This document shows, piece after piece, positions 1 to 57,160 of a stretch of 64,000 bases of DNA. The DNA comes from Eledone cirrhosa (Eukaryota): the NCBI GenBank assembly GCA_964016885.1, contig OZ024742.1, forward strand, positions 85,684,001 to 85,748,000. Reading direction: 5' to 3'. Position 1 is the stretch's first letter. Every line of letters starts with the position of its first letter. A program made the position numbers and the translations under genes. The notes under the pieces are model-generated. The model ran no database searches. It was not told where the DNA came from and saw only the letters and a program-made list of their open reading frames with translations.

Positions 1-684
1 GCGCCATCCCCTAATGTAGCAAACATGACAGCAATAATGTATTGTGGGTCTAAACGCTTTTTTTGTTTGTAGGCACTTCATATCACCACGATGCCGAATG
101 TTGTCCATTTTCAAGAGAATCCTTACTACGTACATTTGAAATCTTATTTGAACAGTCATACTGCAATTTATGTGGGAGGGAACATTTCCGCTTTTAATAG
201 GAAGAGTTTAAAGTCATGCATGAAGTATTCTACGATCCTAGCATCAAACATTCATAGTTACTGTATGGATTTTCAGCACCATCCTCGTAGCTCTAAAACT
301 TCTCTCTCGAAGAGGTACGTTTTACAGATTTAGAGCCTTAGATATGGATCTACAGAAATCTGGTTTAGAATATATGGTAAGTAATAATTTCAGCATTTAG
401 TGTTTATAAATTGTAGATATTAATGTTTCAGATTTGTGAGAGAGTTTTTGTCTCTGCTGATGCAATTATGAATTTAGAACTTTACTACTCTTATCTGCAA
501 ATCGTCTCAATAATGTTCTGTTTCGTCTTTTTGTATTGTTTAGAATATTTGTATATGGTATATATCATATTTAGTATCAAATTGTAATATATATAAATGT
601 ATCTATATATATATATATGTATTAGAAAGTGAGGTTTTTTTTACAAATTGAAAAATAACCGAGGTGTCCTACACGAGTGAAAAT

Positions 685-942
685 ATAAAGAAAAAGTGAT
701 GAAATCGAAAATGCAACTGGAGTCTTATTTTTTTTTTAAATATATATATTTATTTGGTTCCTTTACTGGTTTCGCAGTTCTTCTGCTTTTCAAAAGGTGA
801 GTTGAGATGGAGAGTCTGTAGTTTTTCTCACATCTGAAAAGCAGAAGAACTGCGAAACCGGTAAAGGAACCAAATAAATATATATATTTTAAAAAAAAAT
901 AAGACTCCAGTTGCATTTTCGATTTCATCTCTTTTTCTTTAT
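685..942. repeat. ~108-bp inverted repeat (685-792 / 835-942) carrying an HHR motif in each arm
   Basis: Arms are near-perfect reverse complements (e.g. gatgaaatcgaaaatgcaactggagtctt / aagactccagttgcattttcgatttcatc) with a 42-nt spacer. Confidence 0.9.
760..797 (-). ncRNA. Minimal type I hammerhead ribozyme with U3-A8 core
   Basis: Minus strand reads CCTT TTGAAAA GCAG AAGAA CTGC GAAA CCAG TA AAGG: stem I CCTT/AAGG, stem II GCAG/CTGC, GAAA, GUA cleavage triplet. The plus-strand arm has the palindromic CCGG stem III loop. Confidence 0.7.
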
Positions 943-959
943 TGACCATATATGGAATT

Positions 960-1053
960 ACCCCTTGAGAAGATCGGCTATTTAAATACCAGGATAAATT
1001 TTCATTTAGTCCAGAATTAGCCGTCGAAACGGCTGGAGCTCAGCCGTCGGGGT
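960..1053 (+). ncRNA. Type I hammerhead ribozyme with full stem III and U3-A8 core
   Basis: ACCCC TTGAGAA GA(T)CGGCTA...TAGCCGTC GAAA CGGCTG GAGCT CAGCCG TC GGGGT: three helices close correctly around the core, GUC cleavage site. Confidence 0.8.
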
Positions 1054-1148
1054 CTTACTGGTTCCTATTACCTACTCTACTACCCCAAGTATTGAGTACT
1101 TTGGTGCGTTATGGTCCACCTGGTTCCTTACCACATTTCCTTCGTTTT

Positions 1149-1487: not shown

Positions 1488-1554
<67 letters not shown>

Positions 1555-1726
1555 ATTAGTATATTTACCAACATATGCGCACAGATGTACACTAATGCTA
1601 GCAAATACATAAGTTATGTCATATTACCTAGGTGGTTCTATGCAGGGGGATGCAGAACAATTATATGAAAGACGTAAAATAAGAAAATTTTAAAAATTAA
1701 AATTTAACTTACTTGCTAAAATTTTC

Positions 1727-1808
1727 ACTCCAACTAATTAGTTTCTGTAATGGGATAAAGATAGTTACGCAATGCAACCATCGAGAATTAATTACATCAT
1801 CAGGGAGT
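1727..1808 (-). ncRNA. Type I hammerhead ribozyme (unit 1)
   Basis: ACTCC CTGATGA TGTAAT [39 nt] ATTACA GAAA CTAATTAG TT GGAGT: intact core, palindromic stem III. Confidence 0.85.
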
Positions 1809-2264
1809 CTATTCTCAGCTAAGTCTCCAGGCAATGCGCGGACACTAGGGACTCATATAAAAATAATAATTCGGTGGATGGAACAGCTAGCGGGGACTGA
1901 ATTCCATAGCACTGAAAATGTTCACTGTCTCTGGTCAAGTGGCAGATTCTAAAGAATCAATCACGTGACACTGAGGCTAGTAAGTAGGAGTGAGATGGTA
2001 TTATGACAAGAGCCTACTACCACTACGATGAATTAGCAGTGGATTTGGCAAGTTTGCTCAACAAATAAATACTTTGGAGATAAATTTAGAGAATTAGTAT
2101 ATTTACCAACATATGCGCACAGATGTACACTAATGCTAGCAAATACATAAGTTATGTCATATTACCTAGGTAGTTCTATGCAGGGGGATGCAGAACAATT
2201 ATATGAAAGACGTAAAATAAGAAAATTTTAAAAATTAAAAATTAACTTACTTGCTAAAATTTTC

Positions 2265-2346
2265 ACTCCAACTAATTAGTTTCTGTAATGGGATAAAGAT
2301 AGTTACGCAATGTAACCATCGAGAATTAATTACATCATCAGGGAGT
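2265..2346 (-). ncRNA. Type I hammerhead ribozyme (unit 2)
   Basis: Same motif 538 bp away; core and stems identical. Confidence 0.85.
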
Positions 2347-2580
2347 CTATTCTCAGCTAAGTCCCCAGGCAATGCGCGGACACTAGGGACTCATATAAAA
2401 ATAATAATTCGGTGGATGGAACAGCTAGCGGGGACTGGATTCCATAGCACTGAAAACGTTCACTGTCTCTGGTCAAGTGGCAGATTCTAAAGAATCAATC
2501 ACGTGACACTGTTCCACCCACCGAATTATTATTTTTATATGAGTCCCTAGTGTCCGCGCATTGCCTGAGGACTTAGCTGA

Positions 2581-3272: not shown

Positions 3273-3319
<47 letters not shown>

Positions 3320-15169: not shown

Positions 15170-15760
15170 GGAACATTCCCGAGATAACTATATATATATA
15201 TATATAAAGGATAACAAAATATCGTTATAGGTAATCCAATTAGAGGTTGTGAATACTTATTATTATTGATAGTTTTAGCGTACGGCGTTGCTTGACTCAA
15301 CAAAAGGTTCACGTAGATGACGGCGCATAGAAAAGCATCTAAATGTAACTGCTATCTACCTGACAACTGCCCTTTAAAAAAACAGATGCCTAGAGACAAA
15401 TATAGTATACCTATGTACTATAAATTCAGGTAGCGTAGCATGGCATTACATTGGTCCCACAGATGGGGAGTTTAAGAAAAGGTGGTACGTACATAGACAC
15501 TCTATTACTAACAGGAATCTCTCAAAGACAACGACTCTCGCCAATAAAATCTAGCAACTTAAAGATGCAATCATGGAATATAAAATCAGCTGGACAAAGC
15601 CATCAGAAGCAAAGGCCTATCAGATTGGTATGTTCCACTGTGGTGTCTGTAATATGGAACTTTTCCAAATTTTAAATTACAACAAAATTCTTCTTAATAG
15701 TAAAAAACATTTTATGAAAAAAACATTTTTTGTCGAGATAAATCGGCGACTAAATTTGAG
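15170..15760 (+). mobile_element. PLE GIY-YIG endonuclease fragment
   Basis: CNCYLPDNCPL..CLETNIVYLCTI..HYIGPTDGEFKKRWYVH..YKISW..AKAY..CGVCNME..LLNSK. Confidence 0.8.
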
Positions 15761-22375: not shown

Positions 22376-22390
22376 CATACATGACAGAAA

Positions 22391-25300
22391 TTGAACATGA
22401 GACGCAGAAAACATTTCTCATCTAAATCTAAACGGTTGGCAGCAGACGCTCGACAGCAAAGAGAGACGAGGGGAAATCAATCAACATACCAACAAATTTC
22501 TACATGTATAGGTCAGCTAACGCATCAACAACGGCTTGCCCCGAACGTTCAGAGACGAAGGAAAATTTCAATTGATGGTCTGGTAAAGAATCCTACAGAT
22601 GAACGTTTCCAGGTGCAAACTGTTCCTTCCATAATGTCACAACGTAATGCAGGGAGTCTCTTTGCCTTTGTTTGTCCGCACTGCAAAGCTCATCACTGGC
22701 TACATGAATTCAAATCTCTGTGCTGCTTCCAGGGAAAAATGAAACTTCCTGAAGTTCCTCCTCCTCCTCTAAATATACTTATATATTTCGATATGACTGA
22801 AACAGAAAATTATTTTCTCCATATTATACGTGCATATAACCAGTTGCTTGCCTTAGCTTCAATTGGTTGCAAATAAATTAGAGCACCAGGATTTAGTCGC
22901 ACATTTAAGATTCAATGTAAGGTTTGTCATGTTATTGGATCACAACTTCCAAGTGAAGCTTCACGCAATGTTGCGCAGCTTTACTTCTATAATACAGATC
23001 ATGAGATTCAGAATCACTTGCATCATGCTAATATAGAGGCTGCTCTCCTGCAGGTCCTGCGAGAAGACTTACACTACTGCAGCACCTATATAAAATGCTT
23101 CAGGGCAGTCATTGAAATGTCAGTATCTGAAAATATGAATATTGTCCTACATGCTGACAAAGTAAAACACACTTATTTTCATTGTTGCAAATATACTCTT
23201 CCAATGGTATCTGAGATTTCTGTTATTCAACCTGATATGAATTAGGTATTTTGGATATCATCATCCATAAACGAGACTGTGGTTTTCAGAGGATTGATCA
23301 AATGATCCTCTGCATTATGTGCTACTGTTTCCTTGGGTGAATTATGGCTATCAGATTGGTTTGAAAAGAATTGGCAACAACCTCACACTCACACCTGATT
23401 TCTACTGTTATCAGTTTCAGATTAGGCAAGGTGACTATAACATTATCATGAAGAGCTGGCGGCTGATGCAGTAATATGCTGTAGATGCCCTGGCAAAAAT
23501 AGTACATTGTCGCCTCAAATGGGGCCACAACAAGCACACCATGAAACGGGTTGAAAAGTATAAGGGTTTTATGATGTTTTGGCTGAAGGAGTATTGTTCT
23601 TCCTCCTTCAATCTATGGTTTCCTTTGCTTCTATAGTGACTTCTTCCAGAATTCGATGACTTTGGCTCGACACATGGGAATGCATTCTTATTTCATCACA
23701 GTGACAACTAACCCTGACTGGGATGAAATAAAAAGATAGTTTGCACCTTGGGGAAGAACATATGGACCGTCCTCATATTTGTGCAAGAATCTTCAGGATC
23801 AGGTATGACAGCCTCATGGATGGCATACTTAAAAATAATGTCCGAGGAAAAGTTGTGGTTCATTCTGCTACAATAGAATGGCAGAAACGAAGACTCACTC
23901 ATTCTCATATTCTGCTGATAATGGCTGAAGTTAGCAAGCCCCAAACTGCAGATGGCATTGATCAGGTAGTGTACAGTGAGATTCCTGATAAAGAAACCAA
24001 TCCAATTCTGCATAAGATCATCACATCCTGAAACATTCATGGCCCCAAGCTAATACGATGTGTTCATGTATGGATGGGCTAAGAAAACAATGCCATTGCT
24101 CAAAAGGTTATCCTAAGCCATTGAGAAAAAACACATTTGTTGCCGAAAATTCCTTTCCGGAGTATAGAATATAGACAGCATGGTGGTCTCAACCATACAT
24201 TCCAGCTTAAAGGTCAATAATTTACTGTTGATAATTGTTGGATTGTTCCATACAAACCTTTCCCCTCGTTGAGATACCAGTGCCACATCAATTGTAAGGT
24301 TATCCACAATATCATGGTTGTTAAGTACTTATATAAGTACATCACAAAAGGATCAGGCAAGATCACTTTCTTTATTAAGGATGATCAAGGAAATTGCGTC
24401 CATGCCCAAAATGAAATTGAGACCTATATCAATGCACGGTACATCTAAGGCAGTGAAGCATGCATGTGTATCTATCAATTTCCGTTACATCATCGGAAAC
24501 TGCCAGTTGAAAGTTTGCCTTGCCATTTACCTAGAGAATAAATGGTCGTGTATGAGCAGGAAGAAAGAGTTGTTTCTAGGCGACAAGCAATGACTAAGTT
24601 GACGGAATATTTTAAACTGAATATTAGAGACCCACTGGCACAACACATATTATAGATTGATATTCCTAAATATTTTACTTGAACAAACAAAAGACGAGAA
24701 AATAAATATCTGGATGGGCATCAACAATTTATGAGTAAATCTCTTGGACGCATTCCAACAGTATCTTTTAGTAGACAACAATCTCAATTATATTATCTCA
24801 GGATAATTCTATACCACAAGGCTGGGTCAACGTCGTAGAAAGATTTGAGGACAATTGTAGGAGTTGAATTTTCAATATTCCATGAAGCATGCAGGAGACT
24901 TGGCCAGTTGGATGAAGATGGAGAAAGAGAAAAGGCTATGGAAAAGGCCTCATCCATTACGCTTGGTCCTCAACTGCGAGAGATCTCCTGCATTATGTTA
25001 TTGTACTGCATGCAGATCTGGGAGAAATGGAAGAATTGCCTTGCAGAATATATCATGTATGAATATCATGAAAAAAATATGTCCCTGCAAACCGTCCAGA
25101 TTTTCCTAAAGAAGACCCAACAAAGACTTCAGCAAGATGGCTTGGACATCCATGTCAACTATGAATTTCCTCGGCCAGACCCAACTATAGTTGCCATACC
25201 AGAAAAAAGAGGGCTCATGTGGCAGAAACTGATTGCAATACACACCACCTGCAAGCAAACATAAATGAACTTCTGCCAACATCGAATCCTGAGCAACTGG

Positions 25301-31306: not shown

Positions 31307-33844
31307 GGAAACAGAAATAACAACACAATCGGTACAGTATACGGAAGTGTTATATAGCAGGAAGAGGGTGTTAACGTTTCGGACACTAGTCCTTCATCAG
31401 AAGGAAGAATACGAAATAAAATAGATTGAGGGACGAGCGGGATAGAATTGTGAAAAATGTCTTCAGATAAAAATAACAGGTCCATTCATGTTGACATCTC
31501 TTGCAAAACTGTTGGTGCTGGCGTTTTGTGTAAGATTTATTTTTTAGAAAATTGGATGATGGAACGAATCTACCTAAAATGAAAAAAAAAACGTTTTTTT
31601 AAAAAGAGCTATACTTGAGCACGTGCGTAAGTATGTATTTGTGTGTGTGTGTGTTATTATACGTCCGTACGAAGCTAAGAAGAAATATGTGTGTATATGT
31701 GAGTAAAGAGTTTGCGTGCATGTAAGTACGAAACTATGAGCAAAAGTATGTACATATTAGGGTGTGAATGGAAAAGTGGGGTGTACATATATAGTTGGCT
31801 TGTATTAGCTGTAAGAGAAGCTGCTAACGATCAAGAGAAAGCGATAGGAAACTAGGGGTGTGATAATAGACGGGGTATTAGAGAAATTGGGGAGGTAAGT
31901 TGAGTCCAAGAGGGCAATAGGACCCAGGGCGGTAAATTAGACTTTGTTCAGTCCTGGTGCGCAAGGCCTATGATCCATGATGTAAAAAGCCACCCAGGAC
32001 TGAAACATGTAGGGAAGAATGACCAGTAGAAAAGAAATGACGCGCGACAGCAATATCCAAACCGAGTCGTATGTCCCTCAAGTGTTCGGCAAAAGCATCC
32101 GCCATACGGCATCCCGTTTGTACGATATATAAAGACCCGCAAAAGGAACACGGGAGGGCATAGACAACGGGGTGGATATGCAGGTGAAGGAATGGCGGAT
32201 ACGGAAAAACCCGTTAGGGCCTGTAAGAGTGGTGAGAGTAGAAATAAATGGACAAATGTTACCGCGGAAGGGGAACAAGGATGAGAGCCGGGTGGAGTCG
32301 TGGGAGAGGATGAAAAGGAACTACCCACCAGGAGGTCGCGGAGGTTGCGGGCGCGCTTAAAAGCAGTAATGGGTGGGTTTGGAAAAAAGCGAGAAGTGAC
32401 GGGGTCAGAAGAGAGGATACGGCAGGAACGGAGGATATGTCGCCGGAGTGGTAGTGTGATGGGGTGGTAGGTGAGAGGGAAAGGAATACGAGTGTTGGGA
32501 GGACGAGGGTGAGGTCAGTGGGCTGTGGTGCGGTCTGTTTCATGGGCGCGGGCGAGAGAAGCCTGGATCAAGTTGGGGGGATATCTACGCGGGATGAAGA
32601 AGGAAGCCATGCGAAGGGAATGGCTTTCGAAATCGTCGTCGTGGCTACAGAGTCGAGGAAGAGGGAGGAATTGGGAATAGAGTATGGAGGGTTTGGTGTG
32701 GGTTGGATGAAAGGAGGTGAAGTCGAGAAAAGATTGGGAGTCTGTTGGTTTAATGAAAATGGAAGTGGAGAGGAGAGGGAAGATGGAGGTGACAGTGATT
32801 AAGAGATAGAGAGATATCTAGAAAAGGGACAGAAGAATCGGAGAAGGAGGCGGTGAAATTAAGAGCAGCATGGAAATATTGGACAAAAGAAAGAAAACAG
32901 TCGAGCTGTTCTCGTGATAGAGAGGTGGCACCGATACAGTCGTCGATATAACGACTGTATATCTCAGGAGTCGGTCCAGAGTACTGGGAGAAGATCTGGG
33001 CTTCGACGTAGCCAACACATAAGTTACCATAGTTTGCACCCATTCTGGTTCCCATCGCTACCCCATAGATCTGTTGATAAAATTCACCCGAAAAAGAATA
33101 TCCATTGAGAGTGAGAACAAGCTCAGCCAGACGGAGAAGAGTAGTACTGGGTAAGAGGTAGGGCGTAAACTAAAAATGGTTGGAGAGCGCAGATGCCGAA
33201 ATCATGAGGGATGACGGTATATAGAGAATGATGTCCAGGGTAAAGAGAAGGCGGGAGGCACCAGGAGGGAAGGAGAAAGAGGAAGGCGAGGATGGTGTCT
33301 AAATATTCAGAAATTATCTCAGTGGGGCAGTTACACGCAGAAACGATAGGACGGCCAGGATAATTTCGTTTGTGTATTTTGTGGATGAAGAAGATGGTGG
33401 GTGTGCGAGGGGTGCATAGAATAAGGTTGGTGGCTTTGGGGGGTAGGAGAGAGTAGGAGATGAGCTCGTGGATGATGGAGGACACGAATTGATGGTAGCC
33501 TGGAGTGGGGACAGAGGATAAAGGGTGGTAAAAAAGGGTATTGTGAAGCTGGCGGAGAGCCTCAGCCCTATAGAGGTCAGCGCTCCAAACCACCACAGCG
33601 CCACCTTTGTCAGCGGGTTTGATGAAAACACCATCGCGACTCCGAAGGTTCGAAGAGCGGAGACCTCAGTCCGCGTAATGTGAGAGCGACGAGAATGTAT
33701 CGACAAAGGGGTCGAGGCTGCTGATCTGGCCAGAGCTCGGCGTCCAATGTCATTGCCGGCGACTGAGACGAGTGAAGTCATCCGTTTGTGTCGATGATGG
33801 CGTGTCGTGAAAAAAAGCTTTCACCTTTAATCGACGGAAGAACC

Positions 33845-40259: not shown

Positions 40260-41780
40260 TAGTAATAATCACTGGAACAGGTGGAGTCACGATTGACGGG
40301 GTCCACATTCAATGTGACGCCCGTCCCAGTCGTCATAGGGCATGGCACCGTGGCTGGGGTGTGCTGTTCTATATGTTTAGGGCACAGGACCGGGCGGCAG
40401 TGGGCCCCGTGTCAGCCGGTCCCGGCCCATGCAGTGTATCTTCCAATGTTGCGTGCCCGCTCAAGTGCGAACCTGGTTTACATATGTTTGCCTCACTAGT
40501 CGGACACCGTCATCATAGCATGGTGTCAGGTTCCCTAACCCCGTTGGGCCAATCGGGTCTGTGCGTACCCGTTCTAATGCCCCCTGCCTGGGTCACCCGG
40601 CGGATTCCATGCTGCAAATGTGCATCTTCTCTGGTGTCTGCATGTCATGATAATTTCGGACTTCAGGTTGACGGCGTCATCCTTCAGTCTGACTATCTCC
40701 ATGGCCTCGTGTAGGCACTATCGGCACTTTCTACTTCCGGCCGAATATGCCCTCGCGTGGCGAACGATATTCTATTCCAGGGTGTATGGTGCCTTGGTCT
40801 TTCAGGTCCCACACCAGGTCCACTAACCTAGTTTATTGCATTTTGCTAGGGTCCCTGAAGGAAATCGTGATTATAGATCCGCGATTTAAAGGTCGTGGAT
40901 ATTGCTGCGATGTAGGTGCGACGCGCGTTTTGGGTTGTAACCACACACTTGTATATTAAGTCTTTCATCAAGCATTTTCCCTGTAGGGGGCACCGGGTGC
41001 TCGCTCTACAGTTACAAGTTCTGCTGTCAGTTCTTGTGCATCCGATATACGGGCCCCGATCTGTTATCGCCCTGTCAAGGTTCTGAGGGTGTTGTACCGC
41101 CGACACTGTTGTCTCCCCCTGTGCCACTATTTCCCTCACGGTGTTGGACCATATCGCCCTCCGCGGGCGCACTGGTCGCCTCGTGGGCCGGGTTATCATT
41201 TGAGGGCAGGTCCCTGGGTGGTTCTCCGCGCTCCGAAAGACGGTCACTCTGTCACCGCGGTTGACGGCCAGTGCGCGCCATCTTCACCGTGTTAGTTGTA
41301 GCCATGTAGTCGGCCATATTCGGCGCCCTGGAGAAGGAAAATTTCACCGTGTGGCGGTTGAAGATTGTGTGGTACTTGTTTGTCGGCGGAAAGCACTCAT
41401 CCAGCGCTTGGAAGAAAAGTCCTGGCACGTTGGTGCGTACATGTTTGGAGTAAGGCGCATTGAACCGTGTGCGTGGATTCTTGATGGTGTGTCCAGCGCG
41501 TGTGTATGTATATATGTGTATGTTTGAGTAGGCCATGCTTATCCAACCTGATACATGGCGCGAATTAAGCAGCCGTCATAGGGCTTGTGGCGATATGTAT
41601 ATACAGGTGGGGGTGACTGGGTCCGTAGAAGAGAGTGTATGTGTGTATATATACATTTATGTATGTATGTGGGAGTGTGTATGTCTGCGCATGTAGGCGT
41701 ACGTGTGTGTATGCATAAATATGTCTGTGTCTGCATGTGTTTGTGTATGTGTGTGTATATTAGTATGTGTGGGTGCTTAC
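40260..41780 (-). mobile_element. Inverted 3' half of a Nematis-like PLE (linker and GIY-YIG)
   Basis: RFNAPYSKHVRTNV..LDECFP..IFNRHTVKFSFS, CNCRASTRCPLQGKCLMKDLIYKCVV..TYIA..FKSRIYNH, RSEIIMTCRH. Confidence 0.88.
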
Positions 41781-44191
41781 TCTGAAGTGTGAACAGACGT
41801 GTGAAATACTGAACCCAGCATGACTCCATCGAAATGTGTCGGACGGAAAATGGCTGATGACTCGTGAGGCAGCAGATACTGACCAGAACTTGTGATGACG
41901 TGGTGTAAAAACAGCCAATGGCATGACAAGAGTGGTAGTAGGTTTGTTTTAGGGTGTTTTTGGATGATAACACCCCATTGATAAACATTGCTCCAGACAA
42001 AACACCCGTGTCTGAAAGAACCAGCAGAAGTAGAATAAGCCAGATCCATACAAGGACTATGTCTCGAGCTACTGACGGTGAAACAATTGTAACATGCAAT
42101 AAATTAAGTCCAGATGCATCACTGATTTTTCGTTTTCTTTATACTATCTACACTCTACTCTGCTGAATATCGAGTACTAATTTTGGCATACCGCCTATGG
42201 AAGCACCATAGCTACCATTATACACATCTATATACTACGCTCCTCCACAAATAGAGCGCTTACAGCGATTCGCCATGGAAAAATTCAACTACTCTTCTCC
42301 CATGAAAGACATACCGATCCCGTCTGATAATACGTACATGGGCCTGTTGTTATACCACACCAACTCGTTCATCAGACGCATGAGCTGGCGCGCATTTCAC
42401 CATGACATGCGGACACAACAACACTCGCCAGACGCCCCTCAGGACCGCCTAAAGCGGATATTTAGATCGAGAAGACACCCACCACACAATGCACAACTGG
42501 AGGAATTTGAAAACCGTATAGTCAACATAGTTCGTAACATCAAGTTCCATAGGAATATTGCACGATAGCAAAATATCTCAAAAGTCTCGGATCCACCATC
42601 AAAAGCATGGAAAAATGCCAGGATTTACTCGTGCCCTCAGACAAAACTGGTAATGTATACATGCTTGACCGTTTTACACGCAATGACTGCCTCGGGAAAG
42701 AGATTAGGAAAAACTATAGGACCACAGGAGAGACAAATTTAGATAGTATTAACGCCACGACAAAAAGTATACTAACGGGGCTAGGACTAGAGGATAGGAC
42801 CGAGGTATGTGTACCTAGCAAACCACGGATATCTATTAAGGACCATAAACTAGACTTTAAAACTAAACTGCAGGTTAGGTTAATAGCACCCTCCAAATCC
42901 GACCTAAGCAGGACCAGCAAGAATATTATAGATAGGATAATACCGGTACTTAGAAACAAAACTAAGCTTAACCTATGGACCTCCACTAAGGAGGTAATTG
43001 ACTGGTTCTCGTTAATAGTTGACAAGCACCAAGTAAATTTTATTCGATTAGACATAGATACCTATTACGCGTCAGTATCTCCGATACTAGTCAATAAGGC
43101 CTTCATAAACGCCATGGCCAGATCTAGCCTCACCAGGGACGAGACCAACCTCATAGTAGTAGCCAGAAAGACGCTAATTAGTTTCGAAGACAAGTTATGG
43201 GAGGGGAGGGACAGACCCGACAGTTTCGATATCACCATGGGGTCAAGTGACTCGGCTTAGGTGACCAACCTTGTGGGGATATATCTCATACATAGGCTGA
43301 CGGAGGAGATCCCGGGGATCGGAGGGGAAATATACAGAGACGACGCACTTTTCACCTTCCGTTCCCTTAACCCCAGTCAGATGGAGCGTATGAGGAAGCG
43401 CATATCGCAGTTTTTAAACAACACGCTTATCCGTGACAATAGACACTAGCACTAAGACGGTGAATTTCCACGACGTTACCTTGGAAATGAATACGGGCAT
43501 CCACAGACCGTACCATAAGCCCAAGGAAAACCTGCAATATGTGAACAGGCAATCGAATCACCCTAAGTCAGTCATAGAATCCATAGTTAAAGGGGTATTC
43601 AAACGCGTATCCACCCTGTCGTCGAACGCAGAAGTGTTTGAACAGCACGCCAACTATTATAATGAGGCACTGCGTACGGCCAGTTACAAAGACACCATAA
43701 TATATACCCCGAACGGAGTAGAGCCTAGTGATAAGGCGTGCAGAAATGCCAATAGCGAGGGCACCGCCTTAGGTAAGAATTGACCCAGTATCAGTATCCA
43801 GGAACACAAATAACAACACAACTAGCATTCATGACTCAGAACCGACCCGACGTAGGACTGAGGCACCCATAGGAGCCAGACCACCCAGTACGCGGAGGCA
43901 TGGGCCTGGCACGAACACTGCATACTCCGCGGCAACTGGGGCCTTGGACAGGACTTCGACAAATAAGAACGGGGCAAACGCCACGGAGCACGACCAGCCT
44001 GGTTGTAGTGCTACAGCACCGACAACAGCATCACATAGACCTAAGAGGAATAGACGTATAGATGGTCACATAGAACGATGTAAATTTATAACTGTAGAGG
44101 ATAACCACGACGCACGTAGCGGGCAATGCACACATACATTCACATACATACATATACGCACACATGTGTATAGTCATATATATACACATAT

Positions 44192-45909: not shown

Positions 45910-45980
45910 TGACGTACATGGGAGTCGAACCCACATATGTGGTTATCGCGACCACTGTGCTACCATTACACCAACACATC
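45910..45980 (-). tRNA. tRNA-like sequence with atypical anticodon loop (nominal CGA), copy 1
   Basis: GATGTGT TG GTGT AATGGTA GCAC A GTGGT CGCGATA ACCAC ATAT GTGGG TTCGACT CCCAT GTACGTC A: 71 nt, all four stems pair (some G-U), A and B boxes present. Confidence 0.75.
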
Positions 45981-46168: not shown

Positions 46169-46239
46169 TGACGTACATGGGAGTCGAACCCACATCTGTG
46201 GTTATCGCGACCACTGTGCTACCATTACACCAACACATC
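46169..46239 (-). tRNA. tRNA-like sequence, copy 2
   Basis: As copy 1 but variable loop AGAT; a third copy is truncated at the T-loop (46428-46448). Confidence 0.75.
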
Positions 46240-52439: not shown

Positions 52440-55400
52440 AAAATAACAATGAAAAATTCCCCAATAGAGGGGAGACTTCGGAGGGACATTCGTGGAGAAA
52501 GCCCATTAAAAAGACACAGTGACCCTGACCACCAGGGCAAGTGCCCTCTCCCAGTTTTCCACCTTTAATTTACAAACTCATATTCAGAGTAGGCCCATTC
52601 ACTCGGGGCATTCTTGCCTCTCTCACCCATCTTTCAACAAAATTCTGGGAAGAGAGCACTTCCCTTTCTACCCTGATTTTACTTTTTAAATGAATTTGAA
52701 AAAGTTAATCAGGGCATCACCGAAGAGGTAAGTGCTCGTCTTCAGCCCTTTCAAACGTGTTCACCATACTATCTCTTTCGCCATGGTCACCAGACAGATA
52801 AAAACTGCCTGCCCTTCTCGGCTAAAGGAGGAGGGCGGGGCAATCCTCACGATGGACTCAGCTGAGAGCTGGATCCATCCTACACGCGACAGCAGGTGTT
52901 CGACATAAATCCACAAGTCAGCAATGCTCGGACACTGGACGAGTGAGTGCAGGACGGTTTCGTCGCCCTGCGCGCATCTCGGACATGCCTAGTTGACGGC
53001 ACCACCATGCCTGTTGAGATTATCCCGAACTGGCAAATCTCCTCGGTAGCACGCCCAGGCCAGGGATTTCTGGAAGTTGTCCATAGGCCCCGGCCCGAAA
53101 GTTCTTCCGAAGAGATTGGCTAGTTGATTTTCGTCGACGCCTAGAGTTTCCCCAAGTACGTCGTCGCTCTTCCTCTCCACTAATCCTCTATAGAACGCCA
53201 AGGTGGAGTTTCCACCGATCACATTGCCCGATTGGTCGAGGGCTGTGAGCGCCTCAAGACATTCCAGTCTCCAAGCGCTCCCTCTCGGTCTTCGCTTGAC
53301 CCAGGACTGCAGCTCCGTCAAGGAGACGAGCTGGGGAAAGACGCGTATAGCAAACGAAGACCACACCTGATCACCGTCGAGGAAGAGGTGGAGATGTCGC
53401 AGCCTGAGCGTGTGTCTGCGCATCATCAGCCACGGCATTCCCAGCCCTCCACGTAGCGGGTGTTGACAGCAGATGGACCGCCTGACCATCAGAGCGCGTC
53501 CCTTCCACAAAAAGCGAAAGAGCAAACGTTCCAGCGCAGTCAGGCGGGGCTTAGGACAAGGTACGACGGTCAGGCGGTAGTAGATGACGGACGCGATATA
53601 CGCGTTCGCGACCTCCGCTCGACCTTTCAGGGATAGCTTCCTCTCGGCCCATTTCTGGGTGAGAGAAGCCACCCTGCTCGTCACCTCGTCCCAGTTTTTG
53701 TCCGTCTGGAGATCCGGACCCAACCAGACTCCGAGCAATTTAATTGGTCCGTCCATCCAGCGCCCGATGAAGCTGTTGGGCGGCAGGGACCTGCCTCTCC
53801 AGGTGCCGTGCTGCAGGCCACTGACTTTTCCTGGTTGATTATTGCTCCTGTCACCGCTTCGTATTCTCTCGATGTGTTTGGCGTTCGACACCACTACGGT
53901 GACATCGTCCGCATATGCTGACACGGATCTTCCGCATCCTAGTTCGCGCGGGACCCCCATCAATGTCTCCAGGTTGTGCAGTAATGGCTCGAGAGTCAAT
54001 ACGTACAAGAGGGACGAGAGGTGACATCCTTGGCGGACCGAGCGTATGATGTTGAACGGTTCCGAAAGGTGACCGTTAACTCTCACCACAGAGCAGATGT
54101 TGCTGTGCATGGCAGCGATCCTGCCTCTGAAGAGGGGCCGAAAGCAACCCTCCCTCAGGACTGCCGCTAGGTAACGATGTTCGATCCTATCGAAAGCTTT
54201 CGACTGATCTAAATTGATCAACGACCCACCCGTGCCAGGTTCCCTAGCTACCCTCTCCACGATGTATCGCATGAGGTGGAGTTTTCGTGGATGGATCTGT
54301 CGGGAATGGCGCATGTGTGCGCCTCTCCCACCATACCACCAACGACAAGCGACAACCTCTTTGCTACCACCTTTGCCAAAATCTTGAATTCTGTGTTTAG
54401 CAGATTTATGGGCCTAAAATTATCTATGTTATCCCCCTTTTTCGGATCCTTTCTCAGCAGCGACACAGCTCCTCGGCTCAAAGACCTGGGAATTCTCCAG
54501 TACTGTTGCCAGTTGCAGTTGCAAAGAGGCCTCCAAACAAGTCTGGCATCTGTACGTAAAGTTCATAGGGGCAGACCATACAAACCAGGCGAATTACCCC
54601 TTGTGCAGCCAGTCATTGCCTCCCGTACATCAGCGGCTGTTAAGGGCTTTTCGCAACACTCCTCTTCAGTGGCCGAAAGGCACGGCAGTCCGTCGAGGTA
54701 GACACTAAAGTACATCCCTCGACCCGTCCCGCCGCTGCCCCCAAACAGCAGTGCGAAGTGTCGCTGAAAAGCTTCACATATTTGCCCGGGTTTGAGTAGC
54801 ATGCGCCCGTCGTGGTCCACCAAAGACCGGATCGTGGCTTTGTTCCCACGACGCGCCTCCGCCACTGGGGCCCATTGCACGGCTTTCGTCCCCTCGTGTC
54901 TGAGAGCACGCACCCTAGCTCTGACAACGCAGCCTTAGTGTTTTGCATTGAAGAATTGGTCAAGGACCAATTTCGCCGCAAGTACGTCGGTCGCGAAATG
55001 GAGTGGAAAAGATGGGAAAGACCACTTACCTTACTTCTTGTAGAGGAAGGATGGTTTCTCTATCCTTTTCACAGCTTCTGGTCTCCTCCGGAAGGATGTC
55101 CTTATAAATCCTCCTGGAGAGTGCTTGTCGGAAGTCTCCGATGTCTTTGGGGAATATTTGTTTTAGTGTCGTGTACGTTTTCTGTGTGATGCGAGTGATT
55201 TGTATGTGTGGAGGTGGTGTGGACTTTTGGGTTGTTGTGTAGTCTGTTTCTGTGATGCTGGTGTTGTGTTGGATGTAGTGTAACAATTGGTTGTTGTTCA
55301 AATTTATTGCTGTGTAGTGTGTATTGTTTTGGTTGTTTTGTTTTGTTTGCGTTTGTTGTGGGTTTGTTTCTGTTTCGCTTTTTGCTGACGTTTGTGGTGT

Positions 55401-57160
55401 TTGGGTTAATGATGGTGATTGTGTTGGTGTTTGTGGTGATGGGGTTGGTGATGCTGGTGTGGATGGTGGCATAGATGTCCTAACTTTTTTGTTTGCTAGT
55501 TTATTTGTTTCCCTCTGTATTTTGTTTTTTGAGGGGGAAGGAATGGGATTTGTTTCTTTTTGGGTTTCTTTTTCTTTTTTTCATTTTTTCTGATACCGTT
55601 TCCCACTCCTCGTCGTCAAAATCTGTCTCCAGTTGCGATAGGTCGGGGAGTGGAAAATCCACCACAGGCGTTGGTTTTCGTTGTGGCGTGGTGGATGGTG
55701 TAGGCGCTGGTGCTAGTTCTGGCGCGTTGGGTGGTGTTGGTGTTGGTTTTGCTACTGTTGCTGGGGTTGTTGCTGTTACAGTTGCTTCTGTTGTTTCTGC
55801 TACAGTTGTTGCTGTCATTTCTGCTGCTGGTGGTGTTGATGGTTGAGTCACTGGTGTGGGTATGTGAGGTGGCCTCAACATTTTATCTTGAGGGCAGAAA
55901 GCCCTTAGGTGGGTTCCTTCACCACAAACCACACACCTAGGCCCTCTGGCCTCAAATATTACGGTGAGGTGGCTGCCGTCAGTGAGGTCTATTGCCTCTG
56001 GGATCTCCTCAATGCTTTTTTGGTCCGCTTGGATAAGGAGATCCATCCCAGATCCGGACCAGTTCTCCTGCTTTTCTTTCGCTATTTCGATTATATGGTG
56101 TGGGCTTCGATGCCGGCGAGGACGGCAGCCATTAGCCAGGGAATTTCGATGGCCGGTGATACGTGGGTCACCCTGATCTTGACGAATCTCTGGCCACAAT
56201 AGCTTGGGACGAGTGTGAAGTCGTCACTTCTTAATGGTGTCATGGAGTGTTATCTGGCCTCCTGTGGTGTTTCAAAGAACACGTCCACGGTTCCATATTT
56301 CTGCACACGTCTGATATGGGTTTTTTTGCCCACACATGTCCCAAAGCTTTTTGGATTTGGGACTCGGATGCCCGTTCCACTCGGCGCGATGTTATGTTAA
56401 TCGTCCGATAAGACACGGTGCATAGGCGCCGATACTCAATTTTATTACGTGTGTGTGTGGGGGGCGGGGTGAGGCTGACGCTGTACTCATCTTCCTTTAC
56501 TATTTGGGGAGGCTTCTTTCTAATTCCTCCTGAGTTACCTGGAATGCTTCGCACTTTTTTGCTACTCTGGCAAAAGAGAGGGTTTTCTTATTCTCATTGT
56601 TGCTGTTATTGTTACCATTATTTTTGTTATTGTTTATTTTAGTTTCAGTTTAGGTGGTGGTGGCGTCATTGGTGTTCTGTGTGGAAGAGTTCATTTTGGC
56701 TGAATTCGTTTCGATATCACGAGATAATTTAATTTTTCTTTTGTTTCTGTTGTCGCTGTGATGGGGGGGGGGGGATTCAACACCTGCAGTCATTGGTAAT
56801 GGCGGGAAATGAATGTCTGCCTGAGACAAATTTAAAATATTGCTACTGCTTATATTTTTAGTGTTGGCGAACGTAGTAATATTTACAATGGTGGTGTCGG
56901 TGTGAGGTGTTAGTTTATGAGGAAGACTCTCATCTACTGGGTTCAGCTGTGAGTCGGCCATGATTTTTTTTGTTTGATAATTATAAAAGTTTAAATTTGG
57001 GGCTCAAGGCCACAATCTTTTTGAGTGTCCTTTTCAGAAAACAATGTATGTGCACTTATATACAGTTAACAATAAAAATGTCCATAAATGGCAATTTTAA
57101 ACAACTGAAAATAACAAACCTTTGCGGAGCTCACGATGATATGATTTACTACGTAGGTCG
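52440..57160 (-). mobile_element. Tx1/L1-clade LINE, decayed, endonuclease region deleted
   Basis: ORF1 relic with CVVCGEGTHLRAFC zinc knuckle; ORF2 SPGLYGLP, NFRPINLLNTEFKILAK, LDQSKAFDRI, SVRQGC, AYADDV, GGLGMP, C-terminal CPRC..ETVLHSLVQC. Confidence 0.92.

What the first reader, a model, noticed from the sequence alone, without database searches (positions are those of the whole stretch)
960..1053. Three-helix hammerhead with a natural compensatory U3-A8 core (UUGAGAA)
Seen: stems I (5 bp), II (8 bp with a bulge) and III (6 bp) are intact around GAAA and GUC, but the core reads UUGAGAA instead of CUGANGA. Established: C3-G8 is a tertiary Watson-Crick pair, and compensatory swaps can restore activity. 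Inference: the double change C3U plus G8A reflects selection for function rather than decay. CUGANGA-based searches would miss this motif. A full stem III is also unusual for PLE-associated HHRs, which are typically minimal.
Basis: partly seen in the sequence, partly recalled or inferred. Interest (0 to 1): 0.75.

Follow-up and report, generated by a model that had tools for sequence, protein, structure and literature searches.

The report
Retroelement hammerhead with toggling core pair
This is a real hammerhead self-cutting RNA motif at the end of a jumping gene with thousands of copies in an animal genome; its U-A core pair is already in print, but the family history shows that the element also spread to over 1,200 copies with a mismatched, likely non-cutting core before the pair was restored.

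Summary
In detail: a type I hammerhead with UUGAGAA core, predicted cut after C1048. It is the 3' end (942-1145) of a 5'-truncated Penelope-like element of the Hydra type; an intact relative carries a 719-aa RT/GIY-YIG frame between two direct hammerheads. U3-A8 is no private change: of 4,906 genome matches, 3,616 are U3-A8, 1,204 are C3·A8 mismatches, 32 U3·G8 and only 4 C3-G8. Natural U3-A8 cores, including in Penelope-like elements, are published (2011, 2014), and this scan noted such cores before, in this genome too. What is new is the history. A dated subfamily ladder runs C3-G8 and U3·G8 (oldest), U3-A8, then C3·A8, then U3-A8 again; one clade of U3-A8 is rejected (p-AU 1e-42). Twelve other core positions never change. 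So the motif is under selection, but the pair was not swapped in one compensatory step, and source elements with a mismatched core (inactive in a published natural case) kept transposing. Cleavage was not tested; one mutational scan found U-A low in another hammerhead. Verdict: new member of a known kind, with a useful natural allelic series.

The parts
942..1145 (+). 5'-truncated copy of a Hydra-type Penelope-like element: end of the pseudo-LTR with the hammerhead, plus the tail
   Evidence: 97.6% identical over 209 nt to L248:3283-3491, the 5' hammerhead region of an element with an intact ORF
954..964 (+). Stem I 5' strand (960-964) and its predicted extension (954-959, pairing 1060-1065)
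   Evidence: folds; stem I has 0 changes among subfamily majorities
965..971 (+). Catalytic core 5' strand U3 U4 G5 A6 G7 A8 A9; U965 and A970 are the variant 3-8 pair
   Evidence: sequence; census
972..1025 (+). Stem II (972-980 / 1018-1025) with G10.1-C11.1 and 37-nt loop II; A973 closes a pair that most other subfamilies leave open
   Evidence: G-C to A-U double change at one stem II pair in 10 of 42 distinct rows; subfamily table
1026..1029 (+). G12 A13 A14 A15.1
   Evidence: sequence; unchanged in all subfamily majorities
1029..1047 (+). Stem III and loop, a 19-nt near-palindrome able to pair within one copy or between two copies
   Evidence: monomer -10.8, two-strand duplex -30.7 kcal/mol
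1046..1048 (+). GUC triplet; predicted cleavage after C1048 (C17)
   Evidence: hammerhead numbering applied to the sequence; not tested
1049..1068 (+). Stem I 3' strand and extension; about half of the copies end here (about 20 nt past C17) in (TA)n
   Evidence: end classes; alignments; loose ends at 1068
1069..1145 (+). Tail: first part of the next unit's 5' UTR; second end point about 97 nt past C17
   Evidence: 85 of 199 scored copies end in this bin; in L248 this sequence runs on to the ATG 191 nt past C17
1152..1310 (.). (TA)n tract, the typical insertion target of Hydra-clade elements
   Evidence: sequence; PMC8557442 section 11

Best explanation
The motif is the type I hammerhead in the terminal repeat of a Hydra-type Penelope-like retrotransposon, inherited with a U3-A8 core from a young and very abundant subfamily, and in the source elements it likely cuts the tandem precursor RNA slowly after C17, probably with help from the element's protein or a second copy. 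Shown: the element context, the census, the conservation of the core and stems along the source lineage, and the toggling of the 3-8 pair (C-G, U·G, U-A, C·A, U-A). Inferred: cleavage is a useful but not essential step. Reverse transcription starts 20 or about 97 nt downstream of the cut site, on RNA that still holds the whole ribozyme, so weak selection let wobble and mismatched cores spread for a while and later favoured the restored U-A pair. This particular 200-nt copy is a passive insertion with no ORF.
For: [quoted passage not shown] Census: 4,906 matches, 1,204 C3·A8, 58 non-A8, 28 purine-3; 2,129 match the window's own 27-mer. Selection: 0 changes at 12 core sites, 0 in stem I, 2 (one compensated pair) in stem II, against 52 changes at 37 loop II sites, Fisher p 7e-6; with the core left free, 4,906 of 5,206 matches keep U4 G5 A6 A9 G10.1. 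Ladder: divergence falls from 0.106 in the oldest group to 0.005 in the youngest; young U3-A8 groups nest inside C3·A8 groups at SH-aLRT 99-100 and U3-A8 monophyly is rejected, p-AU 1e-42. Literature: U3-A8 active in vitro per Perreault 2011 citing earlier work; in an Anolis element the hammerhead cleaves only with protein, core mutants still insert, and two internal start sites define the tail (PMC11167929); a natural CUGANAA motif was inactive (PMC8490949).
Against: No cleavage was measured here. A full double-mutant scan of a type III hammerhead found only the G-C swap rescued at 3-8 and all other double mutants low (PMC9901934 section 7), so U3-A8 may be a poor ribozyme. If cleavage mattered, 1,204 mismatched copies are hard to explain. 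During the C3·A8 period too few changes accumulated to show that the core was still constrained (hand count: 7 changes at about 49 loop sites, so about 1.7 expected at 12 core sites; zero is unremarkable). My patterns fixed parts of the core or flanks, so older subfamilies with other cores could be missed, and a long branch (0.65) separates groups A-C from D-K. Pfam did not recognise the ORF; clade assignment rests on motifs and comparison by eye with published sequences.
Confidence: 0.6

Rival explanations
1. The ribozyme lost its catalytic role when C3-G8 was lost; the three-way junction is kept as a folded RNA signal (protein binding, or positioning of the reverse-transcription start 20 nt past the junction), and positions 3, 7 and 8 drift by transitions.
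For: Positions 3 and 8 changed 2-4 and 2 times, rates like loop II (1.4 per site); every state seen is one transition from the next. All copies keep the uncut ribozyme and end downstream of it. Core mutants insert normally in vitro. U-A was low in one mutational scan.
Against: G12, A13, A14, G5, A6, A9 and C17 stay fixed in all subfamily majorities, as catalysis demands; 3,616 of 4,906 recent copies and 87 of the first 100 old-type matches are in the Watson-Crick U-A state, which was reached at least twice.
Confidence: 0.25
2. One reading: a fully active stand-alone ribozyme whose U3-A8 pair is strictly required and arose as a compensated swap.
For: All three stems form in the minimum-energy fold; the window subfamily has the highest predicted share of the hammerhead fold (0.47-0.62 against 0.0001-0.08 in the other groups); the oldest group shows the textbook route C3-G8 (5), U3·G8 (7), U3-A8 (25) of 38 matches.
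Against: 1,204 C3·A8 copies and a U3·G8 subfamily (20 of 23) were made by active sources; Penelope hammerheads tested so far in animals are slow or protein-dependent; no loop I-loop II contact conserved across subfamilies was evident by eye in alignment A1.
Confidence: 0.12
3. The motif is a chance or decayed sequence without selection.
For: Rfam gives no hit; with flanks the folding z-score is only -1.25.
Against: Thousands of copies at a fixed place in the element, invariant core, compensated stem II change; published Hydra-clade elements carry a hammerhead in their terminal region.
Confidence: 0.03

Closest known systems
U3-A8 hammerheads in the pLTRs of Cercyon Penelope-like elements of Schistosoma mansoni (Cervera and de la Pena 2014, PMC4209133; parts 1-2 of 4 read)
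   Same: Type I motif in the terminal repeat; U3-A8 instead of C3-G8; over a thousand mostly single copies; helix II of 7-8 bp, helix I of 4-5 bp; G10.1-C11.1; palindromic helix III region; copies on opposite strands close together and tandem copies about 3 kb apart.
   Different: Helix III is 6-7 bp with a 5-7 nt loop rather than minimal; no extra base between positions 9 and 10.1; loop II is 37 nt; different clade of element.
Hydra clade of C-terminal EN+ Penelope-like elements, e.g. Hydra-1_Obim (Craig et al. 2021, PMC8557442; passages, section 11 and supplement parts seen)
   Same: RWK-like and DKT motifs, CxCx5C linker, no CCHH seen, single ORF, (TA)n targets, 5' truncation with inverted copies and tails, terminal hammerhead.
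   Different: All 26 listed Hydra-clade hammerhead rows have CUGANGA and a 3-4 bp stem III (they were found with a canonical descriptor); this family has U3-A8, C3·A8 or U3·G8 and a long stem III; its 3' UTR makes the unit about 3.1-3.5 kb.
Natural U3-A8 covariants in Perreault et al. 2011 (PMC3088659, section 8 read)
   Same: Same core covariation, described as natural and as active in vitro from earlier work.
   Different: No subfamily history, and no amplified C3·A8 state described in the section read.
PAc hammerhead of the Anolis Poseidon element (Frangieh et al. 2024, PMC11167929; parts 1-2 of 4 read)
   Same: Hammerhead at the pLTR-ORF junction; two 3' end points defining a tail downstream of the cut site.
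   Different: Canonical C3-G8 core overlapping the start codon; here the ATG is 191 nt past C17 and the tail is about 77 nt.

Membership tests
Type I hammerhead ribozyme | Three helices around the core, open at stem I | tested here: met
   89% of cells paired across 42 distinct copies, 0 of 500 shuffles as high (related rows inflate this)
Type I hammerhead ribozyme | Conserved U4 G5 A6 A9 G12 A13 A14, pairs 10.1-11.1 and 15.1-16.1, NUH triplet | tested here: met
   all present in the window copy; 0 changes among 11 subfamily majorities
Type I hammerhead ribozyme | Watson-Crick 3-8 pair | tested here: met
   U965-A970 can pair; canonical C3-G8 identity not met; 1,204 relatives are mismatched
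Type I hammerhead ribozyme | Site-specific self-cleavage after H17 | not testable with these tools
   needs an assay; no RNA run was listed
Type I hammerhead ribozyme | Tertiary contact between loops of stems I and II | tested here: inconclusive
   ACCAG (loop II) could pair CUGGU (stem I loop) in the window subfamily but the 3' partner differs in other subfamilies; judged by eye
Rfam hammerhead families | Score at or above gathering threshold | tested here: not met
   no hammerhead hit in the window
Penelope-like element, Hydra clade | Single ORF with RT and C-terminal GIY-YIG endonuclease | tested here: met
   719-aa ORF in L248 with YRDDG and VIY...YIG motifs; Pfam gave no hit; absent from the truncated window copy
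Penelope-like element, Hydra clade | RWK and DKT motifs, CxCx5C linker, no CCHH | tested here: met
   RWR, SDKTG, CNCPDRSIC read; compared by eye with Hydra-1_Obim in the paper's supplement
Penelope-like element, Hydra clade | pLTR direct repeats, inverted 5' copies, tail, (TA)n targets | tested here: met
Penelope-like element, Hydra clade | Placement in the Hydra clade on an RT tree | not tested
   reference proteins were seen only in a paper supplement and were not entered into a tool
Non-LTR retrozyme | Short non-coding tandem units each with a type I hammerhead | tested here: not met
   units are 3.1-3.5 kb and encode the ORF; the window copy is single

The most novel reading that the evidence does not exclude
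This genome holds a dated fossil record of a ribozyme's catalytic 3-8 pair walking C-G, U·G, U-A, C·A, U-A inside one retrotransposon lineage: sources with a catalytically dead C3·A8 core made over 1,200 copies, showing in nature that hammerhead cleavage is dispensable for Penelope-type transposition, and selection then rebuilt an active ribozyme (U3 regained, stem II closed) in the most successful, youngest subfamily.
Probability: 0.35. Interest if true: 0.6.

Novelty: new member of a known kind. Interest (0 to 1): 0.35.

Why it matters
The role of hammerheads in Penelope-like elements is open: Craig et al. 2021 call it unclear, and Frangieh et al. 2024 found cleavage unnecessary for insertion in vitro. 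This family offers a natural allelic series of four core states in one sequence background, each with a copy number and a relative age, so cleavage rate can be set against transposition success. It also shows that descriptors fixed on CUGANGA miss nearly all of about 5,000 motifs of this family (4 of 4,906 are canonical). The U3-A8 variant itself is not new.

Tried and rejected
Rfam scan: no hammerhead family at gathering score. Pfam scan of the element ORF and three window remnants: 0 families for 4 of 4 proteins. One search used wrong coordinates and fetched an unrelated repeat (L123-L152); these 30 loci were left out of the final trees and subfamily counts. A full bootstrap tree timed out; FastTree and a quick IQ-TREE run were used. 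The first subfamily sorting had a faulty rule and was redone. Expression: no RNA holder listed; the four runs laid are contigs of unknown kind and cannot show ends; neither is evidence. The post-insertion control (core 0.023, loop II 0.059) is biased by the search patterns and was not used. An alternative register for C3·A8 copies (CUGA-GA with position 7 deleted and an extra A) was rejected because position 7 varies as G, U, A and C across subfamilies and aligns without gaps to CUGAGGA copies. U3·G8 copies in groups B and C were treated as likely post-insertion changes (4 of the first 100 matches; in L169 the inverted twin has A8). The inverted repeat at 685-942 is not part of the element (no match to L248). 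Literature searches: 'hammerhead'+'U3-A8' 1 paper; C3U/G8A no relevant paper; C3-A8, C3A8, CUGANAA or UUGANAA 1 paper; hammerhead+octopus+Penelope 1 work. None of the listings or passages seen describes an amplified C3·A8 subfamily or such a history; subscription papers (Przybilski and Hammann 2007, Ruffner 1990) were not readable and are cited only through other papers. Supplements of PMC4209133 were not opened and may show further core variants.

Full report
Observation. The motif is as described. Stem I is 960-964 with 1049-1053, the core UUGAGAA is 965-971, stem II is 972-980 with 1018-1025 (U974 bulged, 37-nt loop), GAAA is 1026-1029, stem III is 1029-1035 with 1041-1047, and the GUC triplet ends at C1048. 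This is also the minimum-energy fold: -28.6 kcal/mol, 5 of 200 shuffles as good. With flanks the fold holds and stem I extends (954-959 with 1060-1065), but the energy is not unusual (21 of 200). My own descriptor found this one hit in the window and none with pyrimidine-3/purine-8 in 5 shuffles. Rfam found no hammerhead.

What it belongs to. A search of the own genome (3.0 Gb) with 940-1140 gave 918 candidates, 40 scored. Longer copies carry, upstream of the hammerhead, an RT and GIY-YIG-type frame. L248 is complete: direct hammerheads at 3306 and 6424, an inverted copy at 894, and a 719-aa ORF starting 191 nt past C17. The protein has RWR, DKT and CxCx5C motifs and no CCHH that I could see, and copies sit in (TA)n. 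These are the features given for the Hydra clade of Penelope-like elements (PMC8557442 section 11), and the protein resembles Hydra-1_Obim by eye. Pfam did not recognise it and no RT tree was made. The window copy is a 5'-truncated remnant, 942-1145, 97.6% identical to L248. Of 199 scored copies, 105 ended within 20 nt of C17 by my windowed rule (the alignments put this end at about +20), 85 at about +97, and 9 elsewhere or ran through. Every inserted copy examined thus holds the uncut ribozyme.

Census of the 3-8 pair. A 27-nt pattern with positions 3, 7, 8 and 10.2 free has 4,906 exact matches and 0 for the reversed control. C3·A8 accounts for 1,204. Non-A8 accounts for 58, which I counted by hand from the full listing as 32 U3·G8, 4 C3-G8, 10 U3·U8, 7 U3·C8, 3 C3·C8 and 2 C3·U8. 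Purine at 3 accounts for 28. The remainder, 3,616, is U3-A8. The window's exact 27-mer has 2,129 matches. Matches include inverted and tandem twins, so they are not independent insertions. With the whole core free there are 5,206 matches, so 94% keep U4 G5 A6 A9 G10.1. Post-insertion change is therefore about 1% per site, and 25% C3 cannot be decay: source elements carried the mismatch.

History. Patterns aimed at G8 uncovered older relatives. An old type with a longer stem II has 327 matches; of the first 100, 87 are U3-A8, 6 U3·G8, 3 C3-G8, 4 other, none C3·A8. Its most divergent group has 38 matches: 5 CUGAGGA, 6 UUGAGGA, 1 UUGAUGA, 25 U3-A8, 1 other, and flanking diagnostic bases step from the C-G copies through U·G to U-A (by eye). 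Another group is U3·G8 in 20 of 23 matches with no A8. On 194 copies, with positions 3, 7 and 8 masked, the tree is a ladder, and mean divergence from the group majority falls from 0.106 (oldest) through 0.085 (old U3-A8), 0.08 (U3·G8 and UUGAAAA), 0.056-0.03 (C3·A8) to 0.023-0.005 (young U3-A8). This sample was enriched on purpose for non-A8 copies, so its state counts are not frequencies. On 38 chosen rows the young U3-A8 groups, with the window copy, nest inside C3·A8 groups (SH-aLRT 99-100) and one clade of all U3-A8 rows is rejected, p-AU 1e-42 (I named the group after seeing the earlier tree; copies that had been misplaced were left out). The root is set by the age gradient and by published Hydra-clade motifs, 26 of 26 CUGANGA (found with a canonical descriptor). 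Weak points: the order of the U3·G8, UUGAAAA and first C3·A8 groups is unresolved, ages within the oldest group do not differ, and a long branch hides intermediates.

Selection. Over 11 group majorities on the ladder, 12 core positions and 10 stem I positions never change, stem II has one compensated G-C to A-U change, and loop II has 52 changes at 37 sites (27 sites changed; Fisher p 7e-6 against the core). Pair counts on 42 distinct copies show the same double change and two more in the stem II extension. The patterns fixed parts of the core, so this is partly circular for the oldest groups; removes that for the 5' core of the recent ones. Positions 3 and 8 change at loop-like rates, but the abundant states are all pyrimidine-3 with purine-8. 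The youngest subfamily also gained A10.2, which closes stem II; the predicted share of the hammerhead fold rises to 0.47-0.62 from 0.08 or less (the low values partly reflect the lone 10.1-11.1 pair that the model penalises). Stem III with its loop is a near-palindrome, and two strands pair better than two hairpins (-30.7 against 2 x -10.8 kcal/mol), so the dimeric fold known for Penelope hammerheads is open to it.

Mechanism. Most likely the ribozyme trims the tandem precursor RNA after C17, slowly and perhaps with protein help, while reverse transcription starts downstream on uncut RNA. This follows the Anolis element, where cleavage needed protein, core mutants inserted normally and two internal start sites made the tail (PMC11167929). 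Weak selection on cleavage explains why wobble and mismatch states spread and why U-A returned. That C3·A8 is dead is inferred from a natural CUGANAA motif that did not cleave (PMC8490949 section 11). That U3-A8 is active is inferred from Perreault 2011, against which a double-mutant scan found only the G-C swap rescued (PMC9901934 section 7). I put 0.6 on this reading, 0.25 on a non-catalytic structural role, 0.12 on a fast stand-alone ribozyme with a strictly required pair.

Novelty. Natural U3-A8 was reported in 2011 and in Penelope-like elements with about 1,300 hits in 2014; long helix III is reported for fungal and protist elements. Earlier notes of this scan report U3-A8 hammerheads in this and other genomes, one of which pointed me to Hydra-1_Obim. 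I found no report of an amplified C3·A8 state or of such a subfamily history in the searches named under Tried and rejected, nor in the scan's notes. The finding is a new member of a known kind; the history is a modest new result that makes an open question testable. Interest 0.35.

Noticed in passing
window 661-942: A foldback repeat (108-nt arms, 97% complementary) directly abuts the element's truncated 5' end. It is not part of the element but recurs in more than ten other fetched loci; likely a separate MITE-like family sharing AT-rich targets.
   Followed up: partly
window 42275-43750 (+), 40586-41470 (-), 15381-15734 (+): Broken remnants of other Hydra-type elements, 33-40% identical in protein to the L248 ORF; my descriptor found no hammerhead near them.
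   Followed up: partly
window 45910-45980 and 46169-46239 (-): Two near-identical tRNA-like sequences 259 nt apart, possibly tRNA-derived SINE heads or a small tandem array.
   Followed up: no
window 1539-2510: Direct duplication with 538-nt period (97-98.6% identical) and a short inverted piece at 2509-2585, an arrangement like the tandem and inverted ends of Penelope-like insertions.
   Followed up: no
window 31948-33820 (-), 52989-56223 (-), 22385-25264 (+): Decayed frames that look like another Penelope-type RT/endonuclease, a LINE with ORF1 and RT, and a Helitron-like Rep/helicase (labels recalled from motifs, not from a database hit).
   Followed up: no
G000:C1:91473243-91493732: Five head-to-tail copies of the youngest subfamily at about 3,542-nt spacing plus one inverted copy: a long tandem array that could be a current source locus.
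   Followed up: no
L248:3379-3580: The reading frame is open from inside stem III through the tail to the first ATG (67 codons), so an upstream or non-ATG start is possible.
   Followed up: no
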